DNA from: Pelagomonas calceolata
Lineage: Eukaryota
Assembly (NCBI GenBank): GCA_918797485.1
Contig: CAKKNE010000001.1
Span: 558,001-622,000, forward strand
Length of the DNA stretch: 64,000 nucleotides
Direction: 5' to 3'
In this document: piece by piece, positions 42,385 through 61,119 of the stretch
How the letters are laid out: each line of letters begins with the position of its first letter
How positions within the stretch are numbered: position 1 is the stretch's first letter
The notes under the pieces: model-generated
What the model saw: only the letters and a program-made list of their open reading frames with translations
The model's database searches: none
Told to the model about the DNA's origin: nothing
Translations under genes and position numbers: made by a program

Positions 42385-44349
42385 TTACAACAACAAAGAA
42401 GACGACTGCGCCAGTAGCCGCGGCCGCATCGCCTCCACCGTTCCCGCGAACGCCAGCAGCCGCGCGGCGTAGAACTCCGCAGGCACCGTCGCCGCGAGGG
42501 CCTTGGTATCGGGATGAACGAATGCCGTGCGAACAAACGTAGGCTTCGCGCCCGGCGGCGGCGCCGCGACGACGTCGAGGCGCTGCGCGCGGATCTGCGC
42601 AAAGCTGAAATGCACCCGCTCGTCCGTCGGGTCCGCGGGGCAGACGACCGTTCGCCCGCCAGCGCCTGGCGCGATCAGGATCGGCCACGACGCGTCGACG
42701 GGGCGGAAGCCCAGGCTGGTCAGCGCCCGCGCGACGACGGGCTTCGTCTGCGGTCTAGCACGTACATCTGCATCAACTAAAACACCAAGCGCCGCCAGAG
42801 TCCCCAACGCGAGCTTGGCCAGCCCGCGCCCCCGCTGCTCCTCGGCGACCTCGACGCCGCGCACGTGGATTGCCAACTCGTCGACCTCGCAGAGAATGCG
42901 CGCCGCCTTCGCGCCCTTCTTCCTATCATTGCCAAGGATCAGCGAGAACCGCTCGTGGCCGTCGAGTTTATCCCGCAGCAGCGCCACGTCGTAACCCTCA
43001 ACGGTCCCGACGAGGCTCCGGCGCGGCGGTCGCGACGGCCCCGCGTCGGCCGCCAGCGACCGCGCGATGGCGGCGCCCTCCGTCAGCAGCGTGCTGTGCG
43101 CGGCGGCCAGCGCGAGAATGGTTAAGAATCGCGGCACGAGGGGCAGCGTCGCGGTCATCATTTGGTCGTGCTGCGAAAGCTGCGTTTCGAGTCGACCGCG
43201 CCGCGCGAGGTCGGCGTAGGCCGTTTCGAGGAGGTGGGGCTCGTGGTGCTTGTACGACAGCACAGCGGCCGCGCTGGCGGCGTCGTCGAGCACTTGTGGC
43301 GCGGCGAGGCGTGGTGCCGGTGAGAGAGCTACCATTTTGCACGGCGCGACGGCGACGGTGACGTCGGTTTCCTGGGCCGCGCGGAGGGCCGCGAGGGGGA
43401 CGCCGGCGCGCTTGCAGAATTGTTCGTCTGTTGTCGTCGCGCTATTGAGGACTATGGCAGGATCAGCCCCGGCGGCGCGGCAAACTTCGAGTCGGGGCCG
43501 GTATCGTGTTTTGAGGCTGTAGCCCAGACGAGCTGGCGAGGATACTATTGAAGCGCGCACTTCGGATGGAGAGAGACCAAGCTCTTCCTCGAAGAAGCCC
43601 AGCTTTGGCTGTATGTTGGCCTCGACGCTGTAGCTCAGCAGTGCCGGTAGCCGTAGCACCATCATCCTCAGCCCCGCGTCGTCCAGGTGGAAGCGCGTCT
43701 GCAACCACTGAAGCTTCGGCTCCATGTTGTCCTCGACACTTTGATACACCAGCGACGGATTCGTCATAACCATCTTCCTCAGCTGCTCGTCATCCAAGTC
43801 GAGGCGCGTCTGCAACCAATCGAGCTTCGGCTCCATGTTGTCCTCGACGCTGTAGCTCAGCAGTTGTTGTTTTTTCACAACCAGCTTCTTCAGCTGCGCC
43901 GCGTCCAGCTCGAGGCGCGTCTGTAGCCACTCGAGCTTTGGCGCCAGGTTGTCCTCGATACTGCAGCCCAGCAGTTGCGGAAACTTCATCACCATCTTCC
44001 TCAACTGCGCGTCGCCCAGGTCGAGGCGCGTCTGCAGCCAGTCGAGCTTTGGCGCCATGCTGTTGTAGCCCAGTAGTGCTGGGAAACGCATTACCACTTT
44101 CTTCAGCTCCGAGTCGCTCAGCCCAAGCTCGGACTGCAGCCAGCCAAGCCTTTCCTCGGCTTGCGCGCGAGTCAAGCTTTTCGCGCTGCTCGGAATCAGC
44201 TTTCCCTCGACCTTGCTGGCCTCTGCCGCCGTGCAGCCCAAGGCCTGGACGCAGTAATCGTAAGCAGCCCCTCTACACGCCACAGCACCTGATGGCCTGG
44301 AACCCGGCGCCACGAGCGCGGCGGCGCCCGCCACGAGCAATAACATCAT
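42385..44349 (-). CDS. mTERF repeat protein with presequence, continuous in frame with a downstream GNAT-like module (possible second gene from 43335)
   Basis: MMLLLVAGAAAL signal; about 36-aa mTERF repeats; GYSLKTRYRPRL; later VRGVEVAEEQRGRGLA. Confidence 0.8.
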   Translation of the reverse strand: MMLLLVAGAAALVAPGSRPSGAVACRGAAYDYCVQALGCTAAEASKVEGKLIPSSAKSLTRAQAEERLGWLQSELGLSDSELKKVVMRFPALLGYNSMAPKLDWLQTRLDLGDAQLRKMVMKFPQLLGCSIEDNLAPKLEWLQTRLELDAAQLKKLVVKKQQLLSYSVEDNMEPKLDWLQTRLDLDDEQLRKMVMTNPSLVYQSVEDNMEPKLQWLQTRFHLDDAGLRMMVLRLPALLSYSVEANIQPKLGFFEEELGLSPSEVRASIVSSPARLGYSLKTRYRPRLEVCRAAGADPAIVLNSATTTDEQFCKRAGVPLAALRAAQETDVTVAVAPCKMVALSPAPRLAAPQVLDDAASAAAVLSYKHHEPHLLETAYADLARRGRLETQLSQHDQMMTATLPLVPRFLTILALAAAHSTLLTEGAAIARSLAADAGPSRPPRRSLVGTVEGYDVALLRDKLDGHERFSLILGNDRKKGAKAARILCEVDELAIHVRGVEVAEEQRGRGLAKLALGTLAALGVLVDADVRARPQTKPVVARALTSLGFRPVDASWPILIAPGAGGRTVVCPADPTDERVHFSFAQIRAQRLDVVAAPPPGAKPTFVRTAFVHPDTKALAATVPAEFYAARLLAFAGTVEAMRPRLLAQSSSLLL

Positions 44350-44707
44350 CGCTGCGCGTTGGCGATGGCCTGCTCGGCCGCCTTCAATTCGCGCGGAGGC
44401 TCGGAGCAAGGTCTCCTCAGTGCATAAGTCTGCACCAGACCAAAGTCTGCATGCAGCAGGCAGCTGCACTGTAGTCTGTCTATGACCAATAAAATCAATC
44501 AATGAGCTTTCGCAGCTGCACTATGAAGACTTTGTGGCACGTTCGCAGGCTGGGCTAGCGTTGACACACTAGGATTACACTAAGAGCGCTGAACTCTATA
44601 CGTAAAGACCCCCAGAAGCCATCGCTGCCGAGGTTTACGACACGTGGGGACCCCTTTATTAAGCGCCCGACGCAACCCCATCGTCGCCGCGTCGGCAGAG
44701 CTGTGAG

Positions 44708-46108
44708 ATGCCCTCCCCCCGCGCCAGAGGCAGCGCCTCGTCGTCGCCGCGTGCGTCGTCGGGGACGCCCCGCGGCAACGGCAGCCCCCGCGAGGACGAC
44801 GCCGCCTGGGCCGAGGCCTGCGCGCGGCCGCCGCTCTCGCCGCGCACGCAATTGATTCGGGCGGGCGCCGTCGCCGTGAGCCTGTGCGTCCTGGTGATGC
44901 TGCGGCCGGAGCTAGCTTTAGCCTACCGCAAACTCACGCGCTTGCCGGGCCAGAACGACAATCTGAAGCGGTTCCTGCCGCCGTCGCGGCCTGTGTGGAA
45001 ATCAAATTTTACGGCACGTTCGTGCTGAATCGTCGCGTCTCCCTGCACGCCATCGACGCGACGCCTGCTCGATGGCGTGGCGATGCCGGTTCGTCACCGC
45101 TCGACGGAGCCAGCACGGTCACGTCATCGCCGAGAAATGACTTATGCACCCGACACACTGGTTGATTTCCACACAGGTCGCGGCGCCGCGCCGCCGAGCG
45201 CCAGCTCCGCAACCGTTTGGAAAGGGCGGGCCACGCCGACGCGCGCGACGCGACGATAGACCCGGACTGGGCCTGGTTCGCGCCCGACTCCGCCTTAAGC
45301 TTAGATGCGGCGTCGGCGGCTGTGTGGAAATCAACCAGTGCGTCGGGTGCACCCGACAATTCTTCACGAAGTCATTTCGCGGCGATGATGCGGTCGTGCT
45401 GGACCCATCGAGCGGCGAGGAACCGGCATCGCCACGCCATCGAGCAGGCGTCGCGTCGATGGCGTGGAGGACGACGCGATGATTCAGCACGAACGCGCCG
45501 TAAAATTTTGATTTCCACACAGGTCGGCGGCCGCCGCCGCCGCCGTCGAGCACGGCGCGGCCCCCGGGCGGAGGGACTTGGACGTGGAGGCTTCTTATGT
45601 GGGTTGCTTCGGCTCCGAGACGTGGTTCGAAAATAGGACCTACGTCGGGGGGCAACGAGGCGCGAGGTACCGCCTGGCCGTCCGCGACGCCGCGAAGCAA
45701 AAGAAGCGCTATTTTGCGTGCGCGCGGCGCGACGCGGACGGCCACGGCTTCTTGTTTGATGATCTAGTCCCGGACGCGCGAAATGCGTTCCCGTCGGGCG
45801 ACCTCGTCGCCGGCGGCTGCGAGCGCGCGTGCGCCGACGAAGGCGCGAAGCTCTGCGGCTGCGCCGACGAGGCGTGCACGGGCGCCATGGGCGACGACCA
45901 GCCGCACCACCGGCGGTGGGCCGTCTACCGCATGCCCGATCCTCCCTCCACAAACCGTGGGCTGCCCGCGCCCGACGAGGAGGAGTGTGGGGACGCCTGG
46001 ACGCGCGTGGATGAGGCTCAAGCGGAGGCGGAGGTCTTTGAGGGGGCGGAGGCGACGGTGTTCACTCATTTAGGTTTCGCGGACGGCGGCGGGGGTTCGC
46101 CGGAGTAA
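44708..46108 (+). CDS. Type II membrane protein with WSC-like Cys-rich domain; interrupted by two introners
   Basis: Exons 44708-44982, 45177-45311 and 45523-46108 join in frame; YVGCF...CERAC...LCGC...WAVYR. Confidence 0.75.
44991..45176 (-). mobile_element. Introner element copy A (186 bp, reverse orientation); TSD GTCGCGGC; predicted intron 44983-45176
   Basis: TIRs CTGTGTGGAAATCAA/TTGATTTCCACACAG; TSD at 44983-44990 and 45177-45184. Confidence 0.93.
45320..45522 (+). mobile_element. Introner element copy B (203 bp); TSD GTCGGCGG; predicted intron 45312-45522
   Basis: Same TIRs; TSD at 45312-45319 and 45523-45530. Confidence 0.95.
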
Positions 46109-46122
46109 CTGGAACAACAGAA

Positions 46123-46623
46123 TTAAAACCCAACCGTGACCGCAGCGACGGCCACGACGGCTCGATCCGCGGCGTCGCCTAACGCTTCCACGACGCGACC
46201 GGACTGGAAGTCCAGGCCGCCCGCACGCACCTCCACGGGGAGCATCCGACCGTACGGAAACATGGCGCGGATGTCTTCGACGGACACGGAGTCCACGAGG
46301 TCTTCCGGCACTCCGATCTCGACCTTTAGCAACATATCTCCGCGACCGCGCTCGTATCCGCGGTCGCGCAGGAGCGTCTCCATATACGGCAACGCGTTAA
46401 ACTCGATGGCCTGGCGGCATGCACGCGTGGCGGCCTTGCTCGCACCAGCCGTGCCATGCTGGTCGCAGCCCATCCCCGCTTGCACGAACACGATCTCGTT
46501 AAGGGTTGTCTCTGGAGGCGCCCATTGTGCGCCCAAGCCTGCGGCTTTCCATTCCTGCGATGTAGCACCCGTCGTGCTTGCGCGTCGTGAGCGCGCGACA
46601 AGCCGTGCAGCGCGATTCAGCAT
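46123..46623 (-). CDS. Lin0512-family protein
   Basis: VFVQAGMGCDQHG...KAATRACRQAIEFNALP...FPYG...GGL...AVAAVTVGF. Confidence 0.85.
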   Translation of the reverse strand: MLNRAARLVARSRRASTTGATSQEWKAAGLGAQWAPPETTLNEIVFVQAGMGCDQHGTAGASKAATRACRQAIEFNALPYMETLLRDRGYERGRGDMLLKVEIGVPEDLVDSVSVEDIRAMFPYGRMLPVEVRAGGLDFQSGRVVEALGDAADRAVVAVAAVTVGF

Positions 46624-46949
46624 GCTTTCAATCAGTGCACAGCCTGCCAGTGGCTTGCACACCCTGTAGCGATGCGCCGCAGCGATGAATTTTCGTACAG
46701 CGCGTATAATCGATGCAAAAGATACTCTTTGCTAGCTGGGCAGCGCTAGGGCTTGCTCTCGCGTCCGGAAAATCCGCAAACAGGGGGCTAGCGTACTATA
46801 AAGACACTAGTCTCCAGCTTTTTTACGCAGCAGCCTCCTAATCAGCCACTATAGCTGCCAAGAATTCGGCCTGAGATTGTATTTGCATCGCTGCGCTGCC
46901 ACTTTCGATCGCTGTCCATTTCTCGCATCGCTGTGACAAACTGCAGCCA

Positions 46950-48824
46950 ATGTGCGGCATTGCAGCCATCCTTTGGGCGGAGGCAGAGGACGCGCCTACA
47001 GCCGAAGATGCCAAAGCCGCAAAAGCCGCAGTCCTCAAATTAGCCTCCCGCTGCGGCATAGCACGAAGAGGCCCCGACAGCCTCGACGCCTGCGTACCAG
47101 CACCGCACGTCGCTCTCGCCGCGAGCGTTTTAACCATGCGCTCAAAAGGCGACGCGAGGCAACCGGCGACCGACGCCAGCGGCAACGCCCTCTGCTGGAA
47201 CGGCGAGTGGTTCCAGGGCGGTCCGGCGCCGGACGCCGCCGACGCGCCGGCCGTGCTAGCGCTGCTCGCCGAGGCGACGGCGGGCGCGCCCGACGCCGAG
47301 ACGGCGGCGGCGCGCGCCGCGGACGCTCTGGCCGCAAGCGTGCGGGGCCCCTACGCGCTCGCGTTCTACTGCGCGGCGGCGCGGACGCTGCTCTACTGCC
47401 GCGACCCCTTCGGCCGGCGGAGCCTCGTGGTGCGCGGACGAGAGATCGCGTCGACGGCGCCCCGCGACGACGGCGCGGGCTGGACGGAAGTAACCACGGA
47501 GGGCGTGCACTACGTCGGAGGCTGCGCGGCCTGGCACCGGTCCTTCTTCGACGGCGTGGGCTGGCCGCCGGCGGGCCGGCCGTGGCGCGAGGCCGGGCCC
47601 GCGGACGCATCCAAAACGCTTGGAGTGGCCCTCGCGGCGTCCGTAAAGCGGCGTTGCGCCGGCCTCTCGGAGGTCGCGGTGCTATTCTCGGGCGGCCTCG
47701 ACTCGGTCGTGCTCGCGCGGCTCGCGCACGACGCGCTGCCGGCGGACGCGACCATCGACTTGATCAACGTGGCCTTCGGCGAGCGGCGCGGCGACGCGGA
47801 GAAGGCGCCGGACCGCCTCGCGGCGAGATCCGCGCTGCGGGAGCTGCGTACCGCATGTCCCTCCCGCAAGTTCCGCCTGATCGAGGCGACGGCGGCGCCC
47901 GGAGACCTCGCGCGCATCGCCGACGACGTCGCCGCGCTGGCCGCGCCGTGCTCGACGCACATGGATTTCAACATCGCGGCGGCGCTCTACGTGGCGGCGA
48001 AAGGCGAGGGCGTTTTGTACGACGGCTCCGACGCGGACCACGCCGACGGCGGCGATGGTGAGCACCGCCTGCTGCGCTACGCGACGGACGCGCCTCGGGA
48101 AGAACTCCCCGACCTGCGCGCGGACGGAAAATGCCGGACCTGCGGCAAGGCCGCGAAGGCGCGGTGCGTGTCGGGCCTCTGCGGCGGGTGCTGCCGCCGG
48201 AAGGGCCGGAGCGACGCCGCCTACGCGTGCGGCGCGCATCCCAAGCGGTTGACGTACGCCGAGAAGTGCGCGCGGGCGGACGCGCCGCCGGCGCCGCCGC
48301 CCGCCGTCGTAGAAAAGGCGATAGTGAAGACGCGCGCCCGGGCGCTGCTGCTGGGCATGGGCGCCGATGAATTATTAGCGGGCTACGCGCGGCACCGCAC
48401 GGCGTTCAAGCGGGGCGGCCTCGAGGAGTTGGAGCGCGAGGTCGGCGGCGACGTCGCGCGGATCGCCACGCGCAATTTGGGGCGGGACGACCGCGTCACG
48501 GCGGCGTGGGCGCGCGAGGCGCGCTACCCGTTCCTCGACGAGGACGTCGTGCGTTGTGTGAGGATGGACCTGGGTTCGAGCGTCGCGGACCTGGCGCTCC
48601 CTCCCGGTGACGGCTGCAAGCGCGCGCTGCGCTCGCTGGCGCTCAGCCTGGGCCTGCCCCTTACTTCTACGCTCGTCAAGCGGGCGATCCAGTTCGGCAC
48701 GCGCATCGCTCCGTTTTCCAATCGCTTGGCGTTCGGGGCGGCGCGGCGCGGCGACGGGGCGGCGAGCTTTGACGTGGCGAAGCTGGTGGCGGGGGCGCGG
48801 CGCGTCGCCGACGAGGCTTCTTGA
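46950..48824 (+). CDS. ASNSD1: Asparagine synthetase domain-containing protein (ASNSD1-like) with a Cys/His-rich insertion
   Basis: MCGI, RRGPD, LCWNGE, RDPFGRRSL, VLFSGGLDS, IDLINVAF, APDR, GMGADELLAGY, RNLGRDDR, KRAIQFGTR. Confidence 0.9.
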   Translation: MCGIAAILWAEAEDAPTAEDAKAAKAAVLKLASRCGIARRGPDSLDACVPAPHVALAASVLTMRSKGDARQPATDASGNALCWNGEWFQGGPAPDAADAPAVLALLAEATAGAPDAETAAARAADALAASVRGPYALAFYCAAARTLLYCRDPFGRRSLVVRGREIASTAPRDDGAGWTEVTTEGVHYVGGCAAWHRSFFDGVGWPPAGRPWREAGPADASKTLGVALAASVKRRCAGLSEVAVLFSGGLDSVVLARLAHDALPADATIDLINVAFGERRGDAEKAPDRLAARSALRELRTACPSRKFRLIEATAAPGDLARIADDVAALAAPCSTHMDFNIAAALYVAAKGEGVLYDGSDADHADGGDGEHRLLRYATDAPREELPDLRADGKCRTCGKAAKARCVSGLCGGCCRRKGRSDAAYACGAHPKRLTYAEKCARADAPPAPPPAVVEKAIVKTRARALLLGMGADELLAGYARHRTAFKRGGLEELEREVGGDVARIATRNLGRDDRVTAAWAREARYPFLDEDVVRCVRMDLGSSVADLALPPGDGCKRALRSLALSLGLPLTSTLVKRAIQFGTRIAPFSNRLAFGAARRGDGAASFDVAKLVAGARRVADEAS

Positions 48825-48958
48825 TGTTGTGTGGATTGTATGTAATTAACAATTGATCTTAGTACTGAGGGGATCCTGAAGGGACATAAAAATGAAAGGC
48901 GTCGGTCGTGGTGGCTACGCAGTCTAGCTCTAAGCAAAGCAAAGGGAAAAAAACGGAA

Positions 48959-50440
48959 TCACGCCTGTGCCTGGTCCGAGCGCGCGTTCGTCTCGAAATC
49001 AACACGCGTCTCCTGGCGCTGCCGGAGCTTCCACGGTTGGCCGGGCGCCGAGCGGGCGAACGTGTTCACGTTGACCTCGCGGGCAATAGTAACCGGCGAC
49101 TGCGACGCTCGCCAGTCGTCGGACGACGCGCACCAGTCCGCCGTGTTGCGCTCCGTGACGACGACGCGCCCGACGTTCTCCGAGTCAAGGAACACTTCGA
49201 CGTCATCGATCTCGACGAGGTAGGGGTATTTCGGCGGCGTTTGATTCTCGCAATAGTTCCGAAAGTCCCTCGCGTTCTGTTCCTTGCCCCGCGTGTAATT
49301 ATGGGAGTTCCCCATGGTACAGTCGTCGTCGAGGAGTTGCTCCATCAAGTCCGCGTCCTTTCGTCGCACGGCCGAGTAGTAGGCGGCGTTCGCAGCTATG
49401 AGCGACGTTCGTTCGTCGAAGTCCGGGCGCTGCAGCGGCTCGCTACCAAGGGGTGATAGCTGTACCTCGTCGGCATCTGACGCGCCGTAGCGCGAAACAC
49501 GCCCCGCCGCCTCGTTGACGGCCTTGAGTACCTCAAACCCCTTGTCCAACTGCGCCCGCTCCGCCGTGAACGCGTCCAGCGCCTCGGCGAGGCCGTCGTT
49601 GGCAGACGAGGCCGCGTTCCCCCCCTCCGCGTAGTTCAGGCCCTCCAGCGCCTCCGGGTGGCGGAATGCGTGGCGGCAGAAGCTCGTCAGCGTCCACGCG
49701 GCCGGCTTTTCGTCGGCGACCGGCGCAGCGGCTTCGGCGCGCACCCACTTATGATACCGCATGGGGCCTCGGCCGTAGTGCGCGGCCACAACCAATAATT
49801 TGGTTCCCGGCTCCGGCGTCTCCTCGCGCACGAGGACCTTGCGCCGAACGTTCGATTGCGCCTCGTCGCCCGTCCAGCCGTAGGTGTCGCCGTCGTCAAA
49901 GTTCACGAAGACGCCGTCCGGCCCGGCTGGTGTAGCGGCGCCGTCGTAGAAGACGTTGTCGCCGTAGTCGGCGTGCTGCGCAACTACCGGAACGGAGGCT
50001 AACTTGGGCAGCAGTGCGTCCTTGGCCGCGGCGCTGTCGTCGCCGGTCGACTCTCGAATTTCGCCCGCCGGCTTCTGCCACGTCGTCTCGCGCGTCAGGA
50101 GGTCGTAGTAGTACGTGCGGCCCGTGCTTTTGTCGACCGTTGACATCCAGACCTTCTCGGGCGTCGCCGGCGTGGGCGTCACGGTCGCTGACGCGGCAGC
50201 GAAGTCCGCCGGCGCCACGTCGCGGTCATAGACGGCGTGCAGCCGTGGGATGCGGCCGCGCTGGCCGCGTATCTGGACGTTGATCGAGCGGCAGCTCCGG
50301 CCGAGGCCCGCGGAGGCGACCTGCAGCACGTCCACAGGCTGCTTGGAGATTTGGTGCCGCAGGATCACGTCGGCGTCGGCTCTTCGAGCTTGTCTGAGCA
50401 GGTTGCGGTAAAGTGTGCGCACCACGCGCGCTCTGGACAT
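48959..50440 (-). CDS. WW-domain protein with C-terminal SnoaL/NTF2-like domain
   Basis: W...DKSTGRTYYYDLLTRETTWQKP; ANAAYYSAVRRKDADLMEQLL. Confidence 0.75.
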   Translation of the reverse strand: MSRARVVRTLYRNLLRQARRADADVILRHQISKQPVDVLQVASAGLGRSCRSINVQIRGQRGRIPRLHAVYDRDVAPADFAAASATVTPTPATPEKVWMSTVDKSTGRTYYYDLLTRETTWQKPAGEIRESTGDDSAAAKDALLPKLASVPVVAQHADYGDNVFYDGAATPAGPDGVFVNFDDGDTYGWTGDEAQSNVRRKVLVREETPEPGTKLLVVAAHYGRGPMRYHKWVRAEAAAPVADEKPAAWTLTSFCRHAFRHPEALEGLNYAEGGNAASSANDGLAEALDAFTAERAQLDKGFEVLKAVNEAAGRVSRYGASDADEVQLSPLGSEPLQRPDFDERTSLIAANAAYYSAVRRKDADLMEQLLDDDCTMGNSHNYTRGKEQNARDFRNYCENQTPPKYPYLVEIDDVEVFLDSENVGRVVVTERNTADWCASSDDWRASQSPVTIAREVNVNTFARSAPGQPWKLRQRQETRVDFETNARSDQAQA

Positions 50441-50817
50441 GGTCGGCTGCGCACGCGCGCGTGGTACTTTTTTTTTGTGTAGTACGCGAGTCTCCGCTCG
50501 CGAGAATGCAAAAGGGCAGCGAAAACTGCCTTCGGCTTGCTGTATCGGCTCAACTCTCGAGGCAAAATCTCAGCGGTTCTGGGGCAGTTTCCCCAGAACG
50601 TGCGCCTCCCTTGGACTCATACAGCCGTACCCAGGGGCTTTCCCCACGGATAGAGGGATACCCGAGAGCACAACAGCTCACGATGGCCTTACCGCGGCCC
50701 ACGCCGTCGCCGCGAGGCCCGCGCCGCAGCCTCCCCCAACGACGCCGTCGCCGCGACGAATGAATAAACTTCTCTTTATTATCTATAGGGGGGAGGGATG
50801 TAACAACAACAGTCGGT

Positions 50818-51615
50818 CTAGAACGTCGGCGCCGGCGCCTCGGCGAAGTGGCCGCGCATGCGCTTCACGAAGGGCCGCGACGCCTTCAGGAAGCTTTCGA
50901 AGTCGCGGCGCAGGTGCTTGCCCCACCTGTGTCTATCGGCGCCCGCGTCGCCCAACGCGCGGTAGAAGACCTCCCTAGGAGGCAGGAAATCGAAGACCTT
51001 TCTCGCAATAGCTCTGACAACTCGATTGTGGTGGTGTGCATAGGTCTTGTCGTAGGCGTCCCTGCCCGCTTGTCTGATGGCCGCGTTCGCCTCCTTCTCT
51101 TTGTTTGGTGAGGGGTCCAATGTGATGGAGCTCTTCTTTATAACGCCTTCGAGGATGTGCTCGAAGAAGTCCAGGAACAGCAAGGACCAATACGCAGAAG
51201 CGGCGACGGGCCGGTGGCCTCGATACGCCAGGTCCTCCTCGTGGCTCACGAGGTCGTCGAGGTCGACGTGGCTCTGCCTCGAGGTCTCGAGCGTCACTTC
51301 TGCTGCTCTTCTGAGGTTAACACTATCCCTTTGTAGGGGCGTCGTGATGAAGGAGGCCAGTACGGTAATGACGGGCATGAGCGTGTCGAGCGTTTCTGCG
51401 ACCTCTATGACGCTCAGCGAGCTGTTGGACACGTAGATGGCCTGCTCCAAATGCTGCGTGCCCTTCCGGAGGATCGAGGCGCTCGGGTCCACGATGATGG
51501 TGGGGAGTTGCGGCGCGGACCAGAGCGTCGTCCACGGGGCGGTCGAGACGAGGCTGAAGGCGAGCATGAGCTGCAGCTTCGTGAGCGATGGTTCTTTCGG
51601 GCGGTGGCGGCCCAT
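50818..51615 (-). CDS. Glycolipid transfer protein (GLTP) family
   Basis: AYDKTYAHHHNRVVRAIARKVFDFLPPREVFYRAL. Confidence 0.8.
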   Translation of the reverse strand: MGRHRPKEPSLTKLQLMLAFSLVSTAPWTTLWSAPQLPTIIVDPSASILRKGTQHLEQAIYVSNSSLSVIEVAETLDTLMPVITVLASFITTPLQRDSVNLRRAAEVTLETSRQSHVDLDDLVSHEEDLAYRGHRPVAASAYWSLLFLDFFEHILEGVIKKSSITLDPSPNKEKEANAAIRQAGRDAYDKTYAHHHNRVVRAIARKVFDFLPPREVFYRALGDAGADRHRWGKHLRRDFESFLKASRPFVKRMRGHFAEAPAPTF

Positions 51616-51719
51616 GGTTCTTTTTGCGTTCTTCGTGGGCGGCGTGCCGTGCGGCGTTCTTTTGAGGGCGAGTGACTCCTCCGCGTGGTCCGCGAGGATG
51701 TGTTAGTCTCGCCGGGTCT

Positions 51720-51789
51720 TGACCGACTGCTACGAGGCGTCGGCGGCGTCCGGGGGGCTGACCGACTGCTACGAGGCGTCGGCGGCGTC
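51720..51789. repeat. Direct repeat of about 31 bp (TGACCGACTGCTACGAGGCGTCGGCGGCGTC x2)
   Basis: Two identical copies separated by 8 bp. Confidence 0.85.
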
Positions 51790-52234
51790 GGCGGGCCGCT
51801 GCGCTACGCGGTTGTGCGCCGGTGAACAAAAGAGCCTGCTCTGACGACTGGCGCACGAGGGCCGGCTTCGTGAAAAGTGGCGGCGCAGCTCAATTTATCA
51901 CGGCAGGGTGGCCTCGTTGGCGGGTGGAGGTGGCTGGGTGTGTAGCCTCGGCCAAGCCTCGCCCGCGCAATGCGCTGTTTTGGACAGGTGCCAGCGGCTG
52001 ATGATTTGACGAAACCCTCAATTGAAGCCTCCAGGGCTCCTGTGCTGCCCCCTCAGACTCCCCTTTGCAGCAGACGCGTCAAAATTTGAATTGAACCAGC
52101 TAGCGTACAGGGACTCTAGGAGCGAGACTTGACCTCAGCTTTAAGCAGGCTGAGCTCAGGTAAGCAAGCCTCTGCTGCCGTCAAAAGCGCGCAGAGTGCG
52201 GCGCAGCAGTGCTGTCACAGTGCTGCAGGCAAAA

Positions 52235-54877
52235 ATGGCCAAAAAGAATAAGAGCAAGCCGTCCAAAAACGGCACCAAAGCTGCTGCAAGAGATGCCACC
52301 GCACCAAAGCCGTCGCGGAGCAGCATCTACGTCGCAGCCGCCGTCGCAGCGATCGCAGCCGTCGCCGCAGTGTTTCTCAACCGCGACGCGGCCACGGCCC
52401 ACGCGCAGACGATCCTGAAATGCTACGCGAGCAACGACTGTGCCGTGCCACTGCCAAGTTGCGGCGTCGTCACCGCACCAGCGAGCATCGCACCAGCGCT
52501 GCGGGCCAACGACGCCGTCCTGGTCGCCGCCGTAAGAAGCTCCACGACGACGCTCGTGCGCGCCGCGGGCGAGACGCCGCTCGCGACGGGAACGAACGCG
52601 AGCGCGATCGACCGCGCCTTGCTGGCTCTGGACGTCGAGTGCGGCACGAAAATAGCTACGACGACGTCGCCGCGCCTCAAACAGGTGCTCGCGGTCTTCA
52701 AGGAGGTGTCGGGGACGCAGGCGCGCGAGCCGGTGGTCGAGGCTCGGATAGCGCAGCTCCGGAAGCTCCTCAAGGATTCTGATGTTGATGTCAGGGGCGC
52801 GCTCGGCGTGGGCGGCTTCTTCGCGTCGGCGGCTTCAATGGAGACGGCCGACACGCCTCTGCTGCGCGCCGCGCGGAACTGCGACCCGCGGGCCACGATG
52901 GCTCTGCTCCAGCTCGGCGCGAATCCGCGCTTACGAGATGCCCGCGACCTACGCGCATTAGATCTGGCGCTGAAGTGCCAGGACCGCAACGTGTTTGGGG
53001 TGGCCAAGGTGCTTATCGACCACTGCGGCAAACCTTGCATCGACTTTGAGGACGAGACGACGCCCCACGACGGTCTCAATCCGATACACCGCGTGTTACT
53101 CTTGTGGGCGTCGTCGTGGTTTCCCACGCGGCCGGTCCAGAACCCGTCTCGACGCGGCGTCAGTTTCGTGCCTTCATCGACGCGAGAACACATGAGAGCA
53201 CGCGTCGCGCACTCAAACGCAAGGGCAAGCAGGATTTCTACCCTCTACGCCATCGATCGAGCGGACGTCGCGTCGATGGCGTGGGGCCGACGCGTGACGC
53301 GTCGACGGCGTACCCGTTCGTTCGTGATCCACGCGATAACACACGCGTGTGCTGGTGCTCGTGCGCCGTCGCTGGACGAGAGCACGCCACTTAAACGCAA
53401 GGAAAACGACGCGATGCCTCACAGGTGGAACATGATGCTCGCCTGGATGCTCGAGGCCGGCGCCGACGCGACGCAGCCGACGCGCACTCCCTCCAAAGAG
53501 GCGCCCCTGCACATCGCCTGCGCCAAACGAAATGTCAGAGCCTTAGAACTGCTGCTGGATTCATTGGAACGATCCCAGACCTTGCAAGGAGCTTTGACAC
53601 AAAAAGACGCCCTCGGCGGCTTCGCCCCCTTACATGTGTGTGGAGGCTCGTGGAAGATCTGGTCCGTCACGCTCCCGCGATTACTGGCGGGCGCCGGCGA
53701 GCTGAACACGCAGGCCTTGGATTTGGATGAGGCTTGCATTCCCCTCGTGCGGTCCTTGGCGACGAGCGACGGGCAGCCGGCGCTCGCGACCGCCGATGTT
53801 TTAGCGCAGTGCGGATTTTATGGGAGAGCCGTGGCGTTACTTGTCCAGAACGGTGCTCCCGTCGATGCGCGGGATTCTCAAAATAGAACCTTCCTCCACT
53901 TTTTGCACCCGCATTTGGTACGGGACGCGGCGTCGGCACTACCATCTATTGACGTGCCGTACAAGGACGTCATTAGTGGAGCCGTTTCAAAGCATCCGGA
54001 CGCTTTACAACTTCTAGCGGAGTCGCGCTTAGAAAGAGAACGGTGGCACGCACCTAAACAAGAACCCGCGCCGCACACCTCTTTCGACGCTTCTGATCAG
54101 AACTGTGATGAAGTAGTGGCCGTCGCGCATACGGATGATGAGGTACTGGATGCGATCCGCAACCACAGACCGGTGATACGCAGAGACGCGTTGGATGCAT
54201 CATGGAATAAAGCGAGAGAGGACTGGGGCGACCGCGCGCGCTTAGAAGCGTTAGGTGGCGGCGCTTTGGTGAGGAGCGGCCCCATCCCCTACGCGTCGGC
54301 CTTCGCAACCACCGAACGCGTGCTGACACTGCGGGAGGCCATGGCGCGGTCCGCCGACGAGTCGGCAAATGCGGAAACGCAGCGCAGAAAAAAGAAAGAC
54401 GTCGAAGCTCCGTCCTACGTCTTCGAGCAGATCCGGTGGGACGGTGTGAGTACGGACCATCCGCTGTTCGACGTCATCAAGGCGCGCGTCGGGGATTCCC
54501 CTGTCAGTGATATGATTATCCACGACGCGCAGTTCTTCGTCGGCTCGCGCTACAGCGGCGCCCCGGCGCACTACCATAGTCATGCCATGAATTTCCTAGT
54601 AAAAGGCAAGAAGCGGTGGCTGCTCTGGCCGCCGGCGTCGGCGTTATATTCTAGAGTGCCCGCCGTGTCGTGGTTGGACAGGAAGGATGCGAGAGCCTAC
54701 CAGTGCGTGCAGCCGGAGAACGCGTCGCTCTACGTCCCCGCGGGCTGGGGCCACGCCGTGCTCAACCTCGAGGACCACACGGTCGGCGTCGCTTTGGAAT
54801 TTCACGTGGAGGGGGAATTGGCCTGGTCCTTCGAATCTCGAGCGACGGATTTGGTGAGTGCGAGTAGGCGACTGTAA
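52235..54877 (+). CDS. Membrane-anchored ankyrin-repeat plus JmjC (cupin_8) dioxygenase; probable in-frame intron at about 53104-53424
   Basis: DTPLLRAA and EAPLHIAC ankyrins; QFFVGSRYSGAPAHYH, KGKKRWLLWPP, YVPAGWGHAVLNL. Confidence 0.87.
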   Translation: MAKKNKSKPSKNGTKAAARDATAPKPSRSSIYVAAAVAAIAAVAAVFLNRDAATAHAQTILKCYASNDCAVPLPSCGVVTAPASIAPALRANDAVLVAAVRSSTTTLVRAAGETPLATGTNASAIDRALLALDVECGTKIATTTSPRLKQVLAVFKEVSGTQAREPVVEARIAQLRKLLKDSDVDVRGALGVGGFFASAASMETADTPLLRAARNCDPRATMALLQLGANPRLRDARDLRALDLALKCQDRNVFGVAKVLIDHCGKPCIDFEDETTPHDGLNPIHRVLLLWASSWFPTRPVQNPSRRGVSFVPSSTREHMRARVAHSNARASRISTLYAIDRADVASMAWGRRVTRRRRTRSFVIHAITHACAGARAPSLDESTPLKRKENDAMPHRWNMMLAWMLEAGADATQPTRTPSKEAPLHIACAKRNVRALELLLDSLERSQTLQGALTQKDALGGFAPLHVCGGSWKIWSVTLPRLLAGAGELNTQALDLDEACIPLVRSLATSDGQPALATADVLAQCGFYGRAVALLVQNGAPVDARDSQNRTFLHFLHPHLVRDAASALPSIDVPYKDVISGAVSKHPDALQLLAESRLERERWHAPKQEPAPHTSFDASDQNCDEVVAVAHTDDEVLDAIRNHRPVIRRDALDASWNKAREDWGDRARLEALGGGALVRSGPIPYASAFATTERVLTLREAMARSADESANAETQRRKKKDVEAPSYVFEQIRWDGVSTDHPLFDVIKARVGDSPVSDMIIHDAQFFVGSRYSGAPAHYHSHAMNFLVKGKKRWLLWPPASALYSRVPAVSWLDRKDARAYQCVQPENASLYVPAGWGHAVLNLEDHTVGVALEFHVEGELAWSFESRATDLVSASRRL

Positions 54878-54903
54878 GTGTTTAGGCAATGGGTAGGGGA
54901 TTT

Positions 54904-55344
54904 CTAGACGTTCGTGCAGACGAAGACGTCGAACTTGTTGTCGATACTGATGAAGCCGTCGGGCTTCTCGGGCTCCACGGGCTCGGGGGCGGCCGGCGGC
55001 GGCGTCTGGGGGGTGAGGCAGTTGAGGCCCTCCGCGATGAGCGCGAAGGGCGCCGTCGCCGCGATGACGCAGTCGCGCTGGATGAACTCCACGAGCGGCG
55101 GCGCCTCGCGCATCGCGCGGAGCCGGTCTTCCGTCGCCTCCAACAAACTCTCGCAGCCCGTCGCCGCGGCGTCGAGGTGGGTGGAGACGCGGGCGCACGC
55201 GTCTTGGAGTAGAGGCGCGAGCGTCGGGCCGCAGAGGCCCTCGCAGATGCGGCGGCGCGCCGCGGCCTCTTCGGCTTGGAGCTTCTCGAGCTCGGCGTCG
55301 GGGAGCGGCTGCGTCGTGGCGAAGCAGAACTCGTCCCAGAGCAT
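54904..55344 (-). CDS. Hypothetical protein
   Basis: ATG ORF with coding-like codon bias; no family recognised. Confidence 0.55.
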   Translation of the reverse strand: MLWDEFCFATTQPLPDAELEKLQAEEAAARRRICEGLCGPTLAPLLQDACARVSTHLDAAATGCESLLEATEDRLRAMREAPPLVEFIQRDCVIAATAPFALIAEGLNCLTPQTPPPAAPEPVEPEKPDGFISIDNKFDVFVCTNV

Positions 55345-55992
55345 CCTGCGTGGCTTGCGTGGTATGATGCGGTGAAGGCGGCGGGGCAGCTTGCAATGGG
55401 CGGCTCTGACCACCAGAAAGTAGGCGATGCTGCGTCGCGCTACGAGGCGCGACGTCGTCCGGGGCAGCGCGGAAGCAGCCGTGGTAGCACGCGCGTCTTT
55501 GCGCGCCGTTGGGCAGCGCCGCTCGCGTGTTTCGCCTTCGGGTCAAGCTCGCAGCCAGCCACTCAAGTTTCGGCTCGGGTCGTGCCCGGAGATCACCTTC
55601 CCATGATACGAGAACTCTGGAGGTCGCGCTATGAGTGCTGATATACCGGCTCGCAAGGACGGCTCTCGAAACGTTTGCTAGTGTCTTGCAGCTAGCCCAT
55701 GCCTGCTTTTGCACGCTGCTTTTTGGCCAAAGCTCTGCAGGAGACGCATTCTGCACACTCAGGAATCGCGCACGCATCGCATCGATCGCTGCCGGCCGTC
55801 GCGCGCTGCCTGACGCGCTGCAAAGCCACAGCTCTCTGCCAGAGGCTGCAGCAGGCTGCCTCGTGCAGCGCACACGTCGCGTTTGCAAACTACTGCGCCA
55901 GCGCGATGCGCCTACTGCCGAAGCCGCAAAACACAAGTAGCTGGATGCGCTCGGCCCTCGCACGCACCTCATTAATAGGCCTCGCGCGGAGC

Positions 55993-57078
55993 ATGGCCAC
56001 AGCTCCAAAAAGGCGCGTGGCTGCGATGGAAGTCAACTTGGCCATGAATCTGGACGACGCGAAGTTGTATGGCCTCGAGGGCGGCTTCCGCCACGCCGGC
56101 AGCAGCTGCGGGCGCCACGTCGAGAAGCTTTACGTCGAGGGCCGATTGCAGGGCTCGCTGGAACGCGCGGCGACGGCCCTCTTTGACGGGACCGTCAAGC
56201 ACGCGCTCGTCGTGAGCGGCTTCTACGTGCTCCACGATCAATTGGAGGGCGCGACGGGCTCGTGCGAGACCGACGGTCCGCCGGGAGCTCTAGCGGTCGT
56301 GCGGGCCCTCTGCGCGCGCGGCGTGCAAACGTCCTTATACTGCGACGCGCACAACGGGCCCGTCCTGAAAGCGGGCTTCGACGCCATGATAGCGTACTAT
56401 GCAACCACGAGGCCCGCCGTCGCGGATCGATTAAGGAGCCACTGCCGCTGCGTCGACGTCCCCGACGGTGTCGATCATTTAGAGGCGCTCAAAGGCGCCC
56501 TGGAAAAGGCCTGGGAGGCAGCTGGCGAGGTCGACGCGCTCGTCGCCGTCGAGCGCCTGTCCGAGCCCTACCGCAACATCAGAGGACACGACCTCGCGGC
56601 GCACACGGAGCCCGTCGACGTGCTGTGGCCCCACGTCGACGGGTCGTCCTGTGGAGAGGCGCGGCGGAAAGCGGGCATTCGGGAGGACGCCGTCTCCGTC
56701 GGGATTGGGGATGGTGGCAACGAAGTCGGACTGGGGCGGGTCGCCCAGCTCGACGCCGTCGCTTCCTTATCGCCTGGCGAGGACTTCTGCGCGCTGGGCG
56801 TGAACGGCGCGCTGCGGGCCTGCGACCACCCGCTCGTCGCGACGGTGTCGAACTGGGGCGGGTCCGCGCTGGAAGCCGCGGCGCACGCGCTCTTCCCGAC
56901 CGCGTTGGACGATCTCGAGGCGGGCGTCGAGCGCGCGGTCCTCGAGGCCATCTGCGCGGCCGGCTCCGTCGACGGCAAGTACGTCGAGCGGCCGCTGTCG
57001 GTGGACGGCATGGCCTGGGAGCCGGTCCACCGGGAGTTCTACGAGATGCTGTGGGGGCTTGCTAAGGGTGAGTCATGA
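55993..57078 (+). CDS. D-glutamate cyclase-like protein (DUF4392)
   Basis: VVSGF, ETDGPPGA, LVAVER, VGIGDGGNEVGLG, VATVSNWGG, SVDG. Confidence 0.88.
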   Translation: MATAPKRRVAAMEVNLAMNLDDAKLYGLEGGFRHAGSSCGRHVEKLYVEGRLQGSLERAATALFDGTVKHALVVSGFYVLHDQLEGATGSCETDGPPGALAVVRALCARGVQTSLYCDAHNGPVLKAGFDAMIAYYATTRPAVADRLRSHCRCVDVPDGVDHLEALKGALEKAWEAAGEVDALVAVERLSEPYRNIRGHDLAAHTEPVDVLWPHVDGSSCGEARRKAGIREDAVSVGIGDGGNEVGLGRVAQLDAVASLSPGEDFCALGVNGALRACDHPLVATVSNWGGSALEAAAHALFPTALDDLEAGVERAVLEAICAAGSVDGKYVERPLSVDGMAWEPVHREFYEMLWGLAKGES

Positions 57079-57141
57079 CTTAAAGGTTCTAGCGGAATGA
57101 AGCGTCTCAAAGAAATATCTGGTGTGCATGCCGTCGGCTGC

Positions 57142-57807
57142 TCACTTCTTCTTGCCCGCCTTCGCATCCGGTGCGGTGAGAAGAATCGCCGCGACCATGA
57201 GCGCGGCCAAAAACACGAAGTCCCCCAGCATTTCGGGAGACGCCAGTCCGTGCGCGACGAATGTGGCCCATAGGTTCTGAATGCTCATGAGCGAGGCCAC
57301 TGCCCTGAGCACTGCCTTCTTGGTCGCGACGCTGGTCTGCAGCAGGGAAGCCCAGGCGCAGAGCAGCACCAGCGTCAGCGCAAGGTTCTTTCTCATTTCG
57401 ATCAAGAACACGTGTTCATCGAAGACAGGCAGGGAAGCAGCCCATGTTTGACAGGCAGGGGCGTGCTCCATAACGCCGGGAATAAAGCAGGGGAGCCGGA
57501 TCGGGAGGAAGAGACCTCCCGCCACCAGAAGGGAGATGTCGAGGGCGCGTGGCGGCTCCTCATCCTCGTCCTCCACGGGCTGCTCCTCGTCCTCGCGTTC
57601 GTGCTCCGGCACGCGTGTGTAGCGCCCGCTAAGCTCTTCGTACCGCAGGAAGCCGCGCCCGCGCAGCCGCCCGAGAAATCTCCCGATGTCTCGTTTTGAG
57701 TACTGAAGGAACTCTTCGGCGAGGTCATCAAGGCTGTAGCTGCTCTCCGTGTCGAAGTGGTCGTAAATCTGCTGCTGGCCCGGTGGCAATTGGTTGGCCA
57801 CGGGCAT
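57142..57807 (-). CDS. Hypothetical membrane protein with N-terminal winged-helix-like segment
   Basis: YSLDDLAEEF...IGRFLGRLRGRGFL; several C-terminal hydrophobic segments; ends KKK. Confidence 0.6.
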   Translation of the reverse strand: MPVANQLPPGQQQIYDHFDTESSYSLDDLAEEFLQYSKRDIGRFLGRLRGRGFLRYEELSGRYTRVPEHEREDEEQPVEDEDEEPPRALDISLLVAGGLFLPIRLPCFIPGVMEHAPACQTWAASLPVFDEHVFLIEMRKNLALTLVLLCAWASLLQTSVATKKAVLRAVASLMSIQNLWATFVAHGLASPEMLGDFVFLAALMVAAILLTAPDAKAGKKK

Positions 57808-58294
57808 GGTGCGCGTGTTTGGCTGCCCCGGGTGGGATGTTGCGGCTGCGAGTGCAGTGCTGGCACCTGCTGTGTTGCTGCGTGCGATTGCACGTCGGCA
57901 GAAGCAGTGAACTAGTGTACATACATACTAGCTTTCCCGAGGCAAAACCCGTCGGTTAAATTGAGGCTAGGCTAGGAGGCAGAGCCCTACGCTGTGCAGG
58001 CTGAGACGCTGTTTTGCAAAGCCTGTCACTGGCAGGCTGTGCACTGATTGCATAGCGCAGAGGTCGGCGCGCGCGGCGTCGCAAGGACACCAGCAGTAGC
58101 GCACAGCGTCCCAACCACAACAAAACAAAACGCGCCTCCTTCATCAGCATGTTCCACGACTCTACCGTTCGACGGCGCATGGGGTTTTGGCGCGAAGAGC
58201 CGCGCTGCAAAACGCAGCGCACGGCCGCGCGGTCGATCGCCTCTGATTAAAGACGGGGGCCGAGCGCCGCGACGGTCGGACAACACAGGTCGCC

Positions 58295-60838
58295 ATGGGC
58301 ATCAACAACTTCCACAAGTGGGTCGACGCGACGTTTGGGTGCACGCAGAAGGCGTCAAGGGTCGACTGCGAGGACCTGTTGGTGGATATGAATTCGCTCG
58401 TCCACGGCGCCGCCCGCAAAGCGAACACGCCGGCGCAAGCCCACAAGCTCATCCTCAAGCGACTCGAAGGGCTGCTCGACGAGCGGCGGCCGGGCCCCAC
58501 GGTGCGCGCGTCGCAAACGCTCGCTCTCTTCTCCGACGGACCCGCTCCTCTGGCCAAGCTCACGACGCAACGGGCGCGGCGGCTCCGCGGCCGGTCCGCA
58601 GCGCGAGCAGACGGCTACGACGAAGACGTCGTGGACGAGGCCAAGTTCACGACGCTGATGATCAGCCCCGGCACGGCGTTTTCGAGGGCGCTCGCCGAGC
58701 GCCTCGACGCCTGGGCGGCGAAGCGCCTCGCGAAGGGCCGCGGCTTCCGGAGGGTCGTCCTCAGCGACGCGTCCGTCGCCGGCGAGGGCGAATTGAAGGC
58801 CTTCGAGTACGCGGACACGTACGGAGACCGCGACGTCGTCGTGTACGGTGGTGATGCCGACTTAGTGGCCATGGCGCTTTCGCGGTGCCCTGTGTGGAAA
58901 TCAACCAGTGCGTCGGGTGCACCCGAGAATTCTTCACTAAGTCATTTCTCGGCGATGACGCGGCCGTCCTGGCTCGGTCGAGCGGAGAAGAGCCGGCATC
59001 GCCACGCCATCGAGCAGGCATCGCGTCGACGGCGTGGAGGACGACGCGATGATTCAGCACGAACGCGCCGTAAGATTTTGATTTCCACACAGGCGGTGCC
59101 AGCGACGAGGACGCTTGCGCATCCTGGACGAGAACGGGCGGCTCATAGACGTGAAGACTCTAGCGAAGCGCGTCGCGCCGGCGCACCCCTTAGACCTGGC
59201 CGTCTTGGCCATCGCCGGCGGCGGCAACGACTACCTGCCCGGGCTGCAACATTCCGCACCACACCTCTGGAGTGCGTTGAAAAAGAGTAAGGCGGGGCCG
59301 CTCTGGCGCGACGGCGCGCTGGACCGCGCGGCCTTCGCGGCTGTCCTAAAGGCGTTTGGCGAGTCGCGCGAAGGGAAGGGCGAGAGCGGCGATCTGCGGG
59401 AAGCGGCGCTCGGGCGGCGGCGCGCCGACGGCGCGCCGGCAGCTCCGCGGACCGTCATCACCACGTTAGAGCCAAGGCGGGCGGACCTCTGTAACGTCCG
59501 CGTGTTGCCGCCGCGGGACTTCGGTGACGTGGCGCGCGGCGCGGAGACTCTCACGTACCGCGTCCGCTGGCGGCGCGCCAACGGCGGGGCGTGGTGCGCG
59601 GCGCAAGCTTACGAGACCGGCGCGCCGCTCGACGCCGTTCCGCTCGAGACAATCAAACACGGCGTGCCCATCCGCGTGCCCGCCGGCGGCGGCGAGGTCG
59701 AGGTCTGCGCCTGTGTGGAAATCAACCAGTGCGTCGGGTGCACCCGACAATTCTTCACTAAGTCATTTCTCGGCGATGACGCGGCCGCTGAACGCGCCGT
59801 AAAATTTTGATTTCCACACAGGTCTGCGCGAGCGCGAAGAACAGTAAAGGTTGGGGCGCATCGCGTACTCAGAAGCAGCGGCGCGCGAAAAGCTTCTGTA
59901 TGGCGCTGGGCCCCGACGAACACGATGCGCACACGGCCGCGGAAATGAAGCGCCAGCCGGCCGCGGCCGAAACGCCGGCGAACGACGACGCTCCGGCGCC
60001 CGCGATCCCGGCTCCCATGAAGCGCGCCTGGGACGCGGCAGCTTGGTTGGACCAGCTCGAGTGGACCCTGGCCATGTACGTGCGCGGCCGTTGCGTGGAC
60101 TGGCGCCTGCTCTACGCGTACCCCGGCAGGCCGTCCGTCGGGGACCTCGTGCGGGCCTGCGGCGCGCCCGCCCCGAAGTGCGTACCGCGGCCGCCGATCT
60201 CGCCCGTCGCTGCGCTAGCTTGTTTGATTCCAGGGCGGTCCGCTGCGGCCTTATTACCGACGAAGGCGCGATTGCTCCTCGACGACGGCTCGCCCATCGC
60301 CAGTCTTTGGTGGGGGGCGAACGACGCCATCGACGTCGACGCTATTGAAGCCGCCGTCGACGAAGCGGTGCCTCCGGCTTGGGGTACGCCCGTGATCGTC
60401 GACGCCAAGGGCCGCACCGCTGTTAGGCTTCTTGCCGACGGCGCCGCAGCGTATCCGCCTCTGCCCCGAGCGCGTGGCGGCGGCGGCCGGGCGCCGCCGC
60501 CGCGCGGACGGGCACCACCGCCGCGCGGCCACCCTGTTCCGCCGCCGCGCGGTCCGCACGCCGCCGCGCCGTCGTATTCTGCGCCGCCCGTTCTCCATGC
60601 CATCGTTCCGCCACCGCCCGCTCACTTTACCGTCGTTCCACCGCCCGCCCCCTCGCTCGCAAAACGCCCGCCGCCTCGACATGGCCCTCCGCCGCCGCCG
60701 CCTCAACCCAAGCGCGGACGAGGCGGCAAGGGCCGCGGTCGAGGCCGTGGACGCGGCGACGCCGCGGCGGCGTATCGGCCGACGAGTAGCGGCGGCGGGG
60801 CGCGCGTGCCGCGGTCTCGCGGACGCGGCCGTTCGTAG
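58295..60838 (+). CDS. XRN-family 5'-3' exoribonuclease-like protein; interrupted by two introners
   Basis: MGINNFHKW, LVDMNSLVH, DGPAPLAKL..QRARR, ISPGT.F, GEGELK, YGGDADL, GNDYLP, WTLAMY...DW..LY; exons join in frame after introner removal. Confidence 0.9.
58890..59092 (+). mobile_element. Introner element copy C (203 bp); TSD GCGGTGCC; predicted intron 58882 (GC) or 58885 (GT) to 59092
   Basis: Same TIRs; TSD at 58882-58889 and 59093-59100. Confidence 0.95.
59711..59821 (+). mobile_element. Introner element copy D (111 bp, internally deleted); TSD GTCTGCGC; predicted intron 59703-59821
   Basis: Same TIRs; TSD at 59703-59710 and 59822-59829. Confidence 0.95.
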
Positions 60839-61119
60839 TTTGTTTGCTGTTCGTAACGTTTGTGAACGCGACCTGTCCATCTCGTGTTCCCCGCGCGCGG
60901 GAAAATCCCGCGAGCGCGATAGGAACCAATCCCACCGCGTCTGAGTCGCTAGCGAGCCGTGCTTCAGCTTTGGTAGACGTTCGATCTCGTCCGGAATTTC
61001 CGGCATAGCGCATTTCCCAGAGTGGGGGGGTCCTCGATGTGCAGACCCAGCATTCAGCATTCGCATTGCAAACCGGGAGCTCCACACAACCGCACAAGTC
61101 TGTTCAGCCGCCGCTACCA

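What the first reader, a model, noticed from the sequence alone, without database searches (positions are those of the whole stretch)
44983..59829. Family of intron-generating mini DNA transposons (introners) that splice out scarlessly
Seen in sequence: four related non-coding elements (44991-45176, 45320-45522, 58890-59092, 59711-59821) sit inside coding regions. Each has 15-bp perfect TIRs (CTGTGTGGAAATCAA...TTGATTTCCACACAG) and its own perfect 8-bp TSD (GTCGCGGC, GTCGGCGG, GCGGTGCC, GTCTGCGC). Every TSD starts with GT or GC and every element ends in CAG. Splicing from the first base of the left TSD to the TIR's AG removes the element plus one TSD and restores the pre-insertion CDS. I checked that the frames join in all four cases. 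Established knowledge: introner elements that take one splice site from the TIR and co-opt the other from an 8-bp TSD are described in the pelagophyte Aureococcus. Inference: this is a recently mobile non-autonomous family, possibly not catalogued for this organism; no transposase is in the window.
Basis: partly seen in the sequence, partly recalled or inferred. Interest (0 to 1): 0.92.

Follow-up and report, generated by a model that had tools for sequence, protein, structure and literature searches.

The report
Algal transposons that became introns
Four copies of a small repeat sit inside two genes of the marine alga Pelagomonas calceolata and are cut out of the RNA without changing the protein; they likely arose as jumping DNA, and intron-making elements of this kind were already reported in this species.

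Summary
RNA reads join all four flanks, skipping the element plus 8 bases, with GT or GC..AG ends. The spliced proteins match named Pelagomonas calceolata records. Of 101 two-ended relatives from marine metagenomes, 41 have a perfect 8-bp TSD; all 81 that could be oriented start the sense TSD with GT or GC; they lie both ways round (38:43); the acceptor AG is kept 38/38 and the same bases are lost 9/43 on the donor side. This is an introner: a MITE-like element whose symmetric TIR gives the acceptor and whose TSD gives the donor. It is not new for this species: Guerin et al. 2022 list 956 putative introner elements with GT/GC donors, AG acceptors and TIRs, and an intron length peak near 210 bp. 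No transposase was found. Extras: three different interiors share the TIR and a 203-bp length; relic copies; one annotated donor differs from the RNA.

The parts
44983..44990 (+). Left TSD of element 1, intronic copy; supplies the GT donor
   Evidence: joint 44982/45177, 194 skipped, GT..AG
44991..45176 (-). Element 1, 186 bp, family A interior, inserted in reverse orientation; 15-bp TIRs; ends in the AG acceptor on the + strand
45177..45184 (+). Right TSD of element 1, exonic copy
45312..45319 (+). Left TSD of element 2, intronic copy; GT donor
   Evidence: joint 45311/45523, 211 skipped
45320..45522 (+). Element 2, 203 bp, full-length family A; TIRs pair in the predicted fold; internal hairpin near 45432-45467
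45523..45530 (+). Right TSD of element 2, exonic copy
58882..58889 (+). Left TSD of element 3, intronic copy; GC donor at 58882 used in RNA; an in-frame GT lies at 58885
   Evidence: (joint 58881/59093, 211 skipped, GC..AG)
58890..59092 (+). Element 3, 203 bp, full-length family A, 92% to element 2
59093..59100 (+). Right TSD of element 3, exonic copy
59703..59710 (+). Left TSD of element 4, intronic copy; GT donor
   Evidence: 119 skipped, GT..AG when read as 59702/59822
59711..59821 (+). Element 4, 111 bp, internally deleted family A copy
59822..59829 (+). Right TSD of element 4, exonic copy
44708..46108 (+). Host gene 1, three exons, 331 aa, no Pfam family in the two exons scanned; identical to P. 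calceolata CAH0364008.1
58295..60838 (+). Host gene 2, three coding exons, 737 aa, XRN 5'-3' exonuclease N-terminal domain (PF03159); matches P. calceolata CAH0364017.1 but for one residue at junction 1

Best explanation
These four elements are spliced out of the RNA together with eight bases of their duplicated target site, leaving the coding sequence unchanged, and they likely spread as non-autonomous cut-and-paste DNA transposons (introners). Inferred steps: a transposase encoded elsewhere binds the 15-bp TIRs and inserts the element with an 8-bp staggered cut, duplicating the target. Because both ends are the same sequence, the downstream end always reads CAG and gives an acceptor whichever way the element lands. 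If the target happens to start with GT or GC on the sense strand, the upstream TSD copy is a donor, and the spliceosome removes that copy plus the element. Insertions at other exonic targets would break the gene and be purged (or the transposase itself prefers such targets; not separated here). Once fixed, copies decay as ordinary introns, keeping only GY and AG.
For: Shown: anatomy. Shown: joined RNA at all four sites in PolyA RNA-Seq raw reads (X21: 2, 4, 3, 7 reads; X24: 2, 1, 8, 1; one sample) and in contigs of X8 and X12. Shown: spliced products equal named P. calceolata proteins, one also held as a transcriptome product. Shown in 120 metagenome loci: 101 of 123 anchored ends have a second end, 54-294 bp away; perfect flank duplication at 8 bp in 41 of 101, at any other length 4-12 in at most 2 of 101, all 41 different; where GY marks one strand only and a codon score gave a call, they agree in 70 of 71; 81 of 81 oriented copies have GT (66) or GC (15) at the intronic TSD start against 17% background; orientation 38:43; terminal AG lost 0 of 38 as acceptor and 9 of 43 on the donor side, p=0.003 (20 of 101 dropped: 13 strand unclear, 3 indel ends, 4 with 5 or more TSD mismatches). 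Homologous proteins run through all four junctions with no residue gained or lost.
Against: No transposase or long TIR-bounded copy was found: none in 34 window frames, none in 60 frames from 6 loci with an unmatched end (60 of 118 listed frames were sent), no paired TIR in 53 viral loci; the genome itself was not available. Read counts at the joints are low, and 107 further joints were not shown, so minor donors and intron retention at these four sites are unmeasured; depth over the elements is dominated by reads from other copies. The cut cannot be placed within the 8-10 repeated bases from reads alone. No DNA run was laid, so presence of the elements in the RNA samples' own DNA is untested. 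A few far ends have no matching TSD (for example L079, L111, L122).
Confidence: 0.93

Rival explanations
1. The elements spread by reverse splicing of an excised intron RNA, as proposed for fungal introner-like elements, and the TIRs are incidental hairpin ends.
For: The intron folds more stably than shuffles (z -3.8); copies are nearly all at splice-compatible genic sites.
Against: Reverse splicing predicts sense-only insertion and a unit equal to the intron; here orientation is 38:43 and the first 8 intron bases differ at each site and copy the next exon. The fold is largely the TIR pairing itself.
Confidence: 0.03
2. The joined RNA comes from empty-site alleles; the insertions are unspliced mutations or assembly features of this window's DNA.
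For: No DNA run of the same cultures was laid; X8 and X12 are RNA only by the tool's guess; spliced and empty forms are identical by design.
Against: The same reads splice an unrelated intron in the same gene (58095/58289); retention would truncate both proteins; AG is under selection only on the acceptor side across wild copies; GY follows the coding strand 70 of 71; introns of this length and form were defined from transcriptome alignments in this species (PMC9481584 Supplementary Note 3).
Confidence: 0.03
3. The GY bias is the transposase's own target preference rather than host selection (a variant of the best reading, not exclusive).
For: All 37 oriented copies with a perfect TSD start with G; the genome is gene-dense so nearly all sampled copies are genic.
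Against: A dimeric transposase usually gives a palindromic preference (recalled); here GY sits at the sense-strand start regardless of element orientation, which a transposase cannot see unless coupled to transcription.
Confidence: 0.15

Closest known systems
Putative introner elements of Pelagomonas calceolata (Guerin et al. 2022, PMC9481584; seen: main-text passages and the text of Supplementary Note 3; Figure S3 is a picture and Table S3 was not seen)
   Same: Same species; repeat-derived introns with GT and GC donors, AG acceptor and conserved TIR; intron length peak near 210 bp (here 211 nt for full-length copies); 956 counted.
   Different: The text seen gives no TIR sequence, no TSD, no orientation data and no family breakdown, so identity of sequence with their logo could not be checked. 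The 8-bp TSD donor, both orientations and three interiors are added here.
Introner elements of Aureococcus anophagefferens (Huff, Zilberman and Roy 2016; paper not held; seen only through passages in PMC7789003, PMC5647799, PMC10228655, PMC9860276)
   Same: Pelagophyte host; direct repeats and TIRs of constant length with canonical splice motifs; splice-site co-option; insertion in both orientations; about 210-bp length (as cited by PMC9481584). The 8-bp TSD with one site from the TIR is recalled.
   Different: Other genus; sequence relation of the TIRs not tested (no Aureococcus DNA on hand).
Introner families of Gozashti et al. 2022 (PMC9860276; seen: passages, Fig. 2 legend, supplement rows)
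   Same: Fig. 2B type (Symbiodinium): carries the 3' site, co-opts the 5' site from the TSD. Pelagomonas is listed as introner-bearing; four families in one Pelagomonas MAG of 80-186 bp.
   Different: Symbiodinium TSD is 4 bp; the Aureococcus sp. family of Fig. 2F has an 8-bp TSD but adds 12 bp; TSD and TIR calls for the Pelagomonas MAG families are '?' in their Table 6.
hAT-superfamily MITEs (recalled: 8-bp TSD, short TIRs)
   Same: 8-bp TSD, 15-bp TIR, no coding capacity, internal deletions.
   Different: No transposase to place it; the TIR does not begin with the recalled hAT start motif; P, Merlin and some Mutator elements also make about 8-bp TSDs (recalled).

Membership tests
Introner (transposon-derived intron family) | Similar intron sequence at unrelated genes, similarity ending at the intron borders | tested here: met
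   4 copies in 2 unrelated window genes; 81 of 101 two-ended metagenome copies have at least half their interior like element 2; 41 different perfect TSDs
Introner (transposon-derived intron family) | Removed from mRNA at spliceosomal GT/GC..AG borders | tested here: met
   All 4 of 4 joints in RNA; involvement of the spliceosome is inferred from the borders
Introner (transposon-derived intron family) | Absent from orthologous sites in relatives (gain, not ancestral intron) | tested here: inconclusive
   Orthologous proteins on 23-81-kb contigs (P0037, P0044, P0065, P0068, P0070, P0019-P0021) read through the junctions, which means empty sites if genes were called without introns; their DNA was not seen
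Aureococcus-type MITE introner | TIR of constant length and 8-bp TSD | tested here: met
Aureococcus-type MITE introner | One splice site carried in the TIR, the other co-opted from the TSD; both orientations | tested here: met
Aureococcus-type MITE introner | Insertion into nucleosome linkers | not testable with these tools
   needs nucleosome maps
Aureococcus-type MITE introner | Sequence homology to the A. anophagefferens families | not testable with these tools
   no Aureococcus DNA or Huff 2016 text held
The 956 putative IEs of P. calceolata | Species, intron overlapping a repeat family, GT/GC..AG, TIR, about 210 nt | tested here: met
The 956 putative IEs of P. calceolata | Same TIR sequence as in Figure S3b / listed in Table S3 | not testable with these tools
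   figure pages hold no text
hAT superfamily | Cognate hAT transposase in an autonomous copy | tested here: inconclusive
   none found in the window or in 6 loci; genome not searchable
hAT superfamily | 8-bp TSD | tested here: met
   not unique to hAT (recalled)

The most novel reading that the evidence does not exclude
One still-unidentified transposase system has driven several introner waves across pelagophyte lineages: three interiors (A, B, and C, which is unrelated to A and B and sits in 72% GC contigs against 63%) carry the same TIR and reach the same 203-bp full length, so length itself is selected, possibly to one nucleosome repeat or to the transposase's end spacing; and relic hairpins show that far more than 956 of this alga's introns descend from it.
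Probability: 0.3. Interest if true: 0.55.

Novelty: already known. Interest (0 to 1): 0.27.

Why it matters
Intron gain by transposons is an established route in marine algae, and this species is already on the list. The value here is a clean, RNA-checked case with a full rule set (8-bp TSD donor, symmetric TIR acceptor, both orientations) and an age series from perfect copies to relics in an abundant, culturable picoalga with a finished genome. The open question it makes approachable is which transposase moves these elements and why unrelated interiors share one length.

Tried and rejected
Viral origin or carriage: 53 viral loci match one TIR, none has both ends; treated as chance. L081 is a chance match in a bacterial-type locus. 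Autonomous partner: unmatched ends were read by eye; they are decayed short copies or run off the contig or fetched stretch; L170 has an unfamiliar interior but its contig ends after 165 bases; Pfam found no transposase. Records behind loci are not held for further search. Empty sites among the fetched loci: only one overlapping pair, same allele. Branch point inside the TIR: its first five bases vary less on the acceptor side (7 of 190 against 17 of 215) but p=0.09, so not claimed. Drift of the intronic TSD from GC to GT: 4 GT/GC pairs against 0 GC/GT, too few and unpolarised. Rfam: no match over 44900-45600. Earlier scan notes: nothing on this sequence or genome; the 8 listed by words concern other organisms. 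Literature searches for a fuller Pelagomonas description gave only the papers cited; bioRxiv supplements and picture pages could hold more.
Full report
Observation. The 15-base repeat end occurs eight times exactly, as four facing pairs, far above chance. Each pair bounds an element of 186, 203, 203 or 111 bp with a 15-bp perfect TIR and a perfect, site-specific 8-bp duplication. Element 1 lies reversed; element 4 is an internally deleted copy. No other TIR+TSD element of this quality is in the window.

Host and organism. The window is a gene-dense eukaryotic stretch of about 63% GC. Removing each element with one TSD yields a 331-aa and a 737-aa protein. The first is identical over 331 of 331 residues to P0048, named by its sources Pelagomonas calceolata CAH0364008.1 and also held as a transcriptome product. 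The second, an XRN_N-domain protein, matches P0011, P. calceolata CAH0364017.1, at 737 of 737 aligned residues, the record having one extra arginine at junction 1. The species is therefore P. calceolata.

RNA. Four runs were laid on 44500-61000. All four predicted joints appear: 44982/45177 (194 skipped), 45311/45523 (211), 58881/59093 (211, GC..AG) and 59702/59822 (119). Raw PolyA reads: X21 2, 4, 3, 7; X24 2, 1, 8, 1 (one sample); contigs of X8 and X12, RNA by the tool's guess, show each as well. The skip equals element plus 8 in each case; the cut position inside the repeated bases is inferred from the splice signals. The named record's extra arginine corresponds to the GT at 58885; the joint shown uses the GC at 58882, and close homologues P0002, P0013, P0017, P0018 lack the extra residue. 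107 lesser joints were not displayed, so minor donor use is unknown. The DNA side of this test is open.

The family elsewhere. Of 123 anchored ends, 101 have a second end 54-294 bp away, mode 203; 22 do not (cut contigs, decayed ends, one bacterial chance match). Flank duplication is perfect at 8 bp in 41 of 101 and at other lengths in at most 2; positions 3-8 agree 78% against 30% when shuffled. A codon score trained on window genes, independent of the TSD, agrees with the strand implied by GY in 70 of 71 one-sided cases. After dropping 20 doubtful rows, 81 of 81 start the intronic TSD with GT or GC, orientation is 38:43, and the free TIR keeps its AG in 38 of 38 acceptor positions but loses it in 9 of 43 donor-side positions. 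Full-length copies have fewer TSD mismatches than shortened ones (p=0.007), an age series. Twelve 203-bp family A copies are 86-96% alike pairwise: a past burst, with present activity unproven.

Gain rather than ancestral intron. Orthologues 75-85% identical on contigs of 23-78 kb, and a near-identical one on an 81-kb contig (P0044, with local frame errors at junction 1), read straight through the junctions without gain or loss of residues. If those genes were called without introns, the sites are empty there; the DNA was not seen, so this is inference.

Mechanism. Shown: anatomy, removal of element plus 8 bases, strand rule, selection on the acceptor AG. Inferred: cut-and-paste insertion by a transposase in trans, spliceosomal removal, purging of insertions at non-GY exonic targets. 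No transposase was found in the window, beside unmatched ends or in viral contigs, and the genome could not be searched. Reverse splicing is disfavoured by two-way orientation and site-specific first bases.

What is known. Guerin et al. 2022 (PMC9481584; passages and Supplementary Note 3 read, figure not visible) report an intron peak near 210 bp and 956 putative introner elements with GT and GC donors, AG acceptor and conserved TIR in this species. Gozashti et al. 2022 (PMC9860276; passages and supplement rows) describe the carry-3', co-opt-5' type and list Pelagomonas as introner-bearing, with TSD and TIR undetermined. Huff et al. 2016 was not available; it is cited through others. The finding is thus almost surely part of a published set; the TSD rule and orientation data were not in the Pelagomonas texts that I could read (searches).

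What is left over. Three interiors share the TIR: A (window), B (shares only the hairpin core with A) and C (no similarity to either above shuffles; 5 loci, mean GC 0.72 against 0.63). Full-length A, B and C copies are 203, 203 and 203-207 bp. The hairpin core occurs 10 times in the window against 0.03 expected, 7 of them outside the four elements, one inside an RNA-confirmed 279-nt intron without TIRs. These suggest a shared driver, a length constraint and many older copies, all untested.

Verdict. Real, well explained, known kind in a known host: interest 0.27.

Noticed in passing
L062:560-762, L135, L147, L164 (family B); L151:117-319, L068, L063, L168, L087 (family C): Two further interiors share the same TIR and about 203-bp full length; C is unrelated to A and B and lies in contigs of higher GC, likely another pelagophyte lineage.
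   Followed up: partly
window 53146-53424: A 279-nt GT..AG intron in an ankyrin/cupin-like gene, seen in one RNA contig (X12), holds the element's hairpin core but no TIRs; likely a relic copy.
   Followed up: partly
window 58096-58288: A 193-nt intron just upstream of the XRN start codon, spliced in all four runs; it ends in the same six bases as the TIR and the next exon starts with GT, but it has no other likeness to the elements.
   Followed up: partly
window 8017-8081: 65-bp relic of family B, 86% identical.
   Followed up: no
window 21930-22460: The NMD3 gene appears split by two likely introns ending at 22083 and 22460, each holding the hairpin core; not covered by the RNA lay.
   Followed up: partly
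window 1882, 21226, 26559, 39656: Further copies of the hairpin core, some near gene starts; one at 39656 is followed by a TIR-like intron end at 39685.
   Followed up: no
window 58882-58887: The named record CAH0364017.1 has one more residue than the RNA joint gives, matching the GT donor three bases downstream of the GC donor seen in reads.
   Followed up: yes
window 45051-45601, 58826-59927: PolyA reads pile up on the elements with foreign flanks, so many transcripts from other loci retain family copies (unspliced or in untranslated regions).
   Followed up: no
window 30696-32927 and 42385-44520: Two mTERF genes with 111-bp tandem units, one fused to an Asp/Asn beta-hydroxylase domain.
   Followed up: no
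L170:1-165: A TIR end followed by an unfamiliar interior that runs off the contig; a possible end of a longer element.
   Followed up: partly
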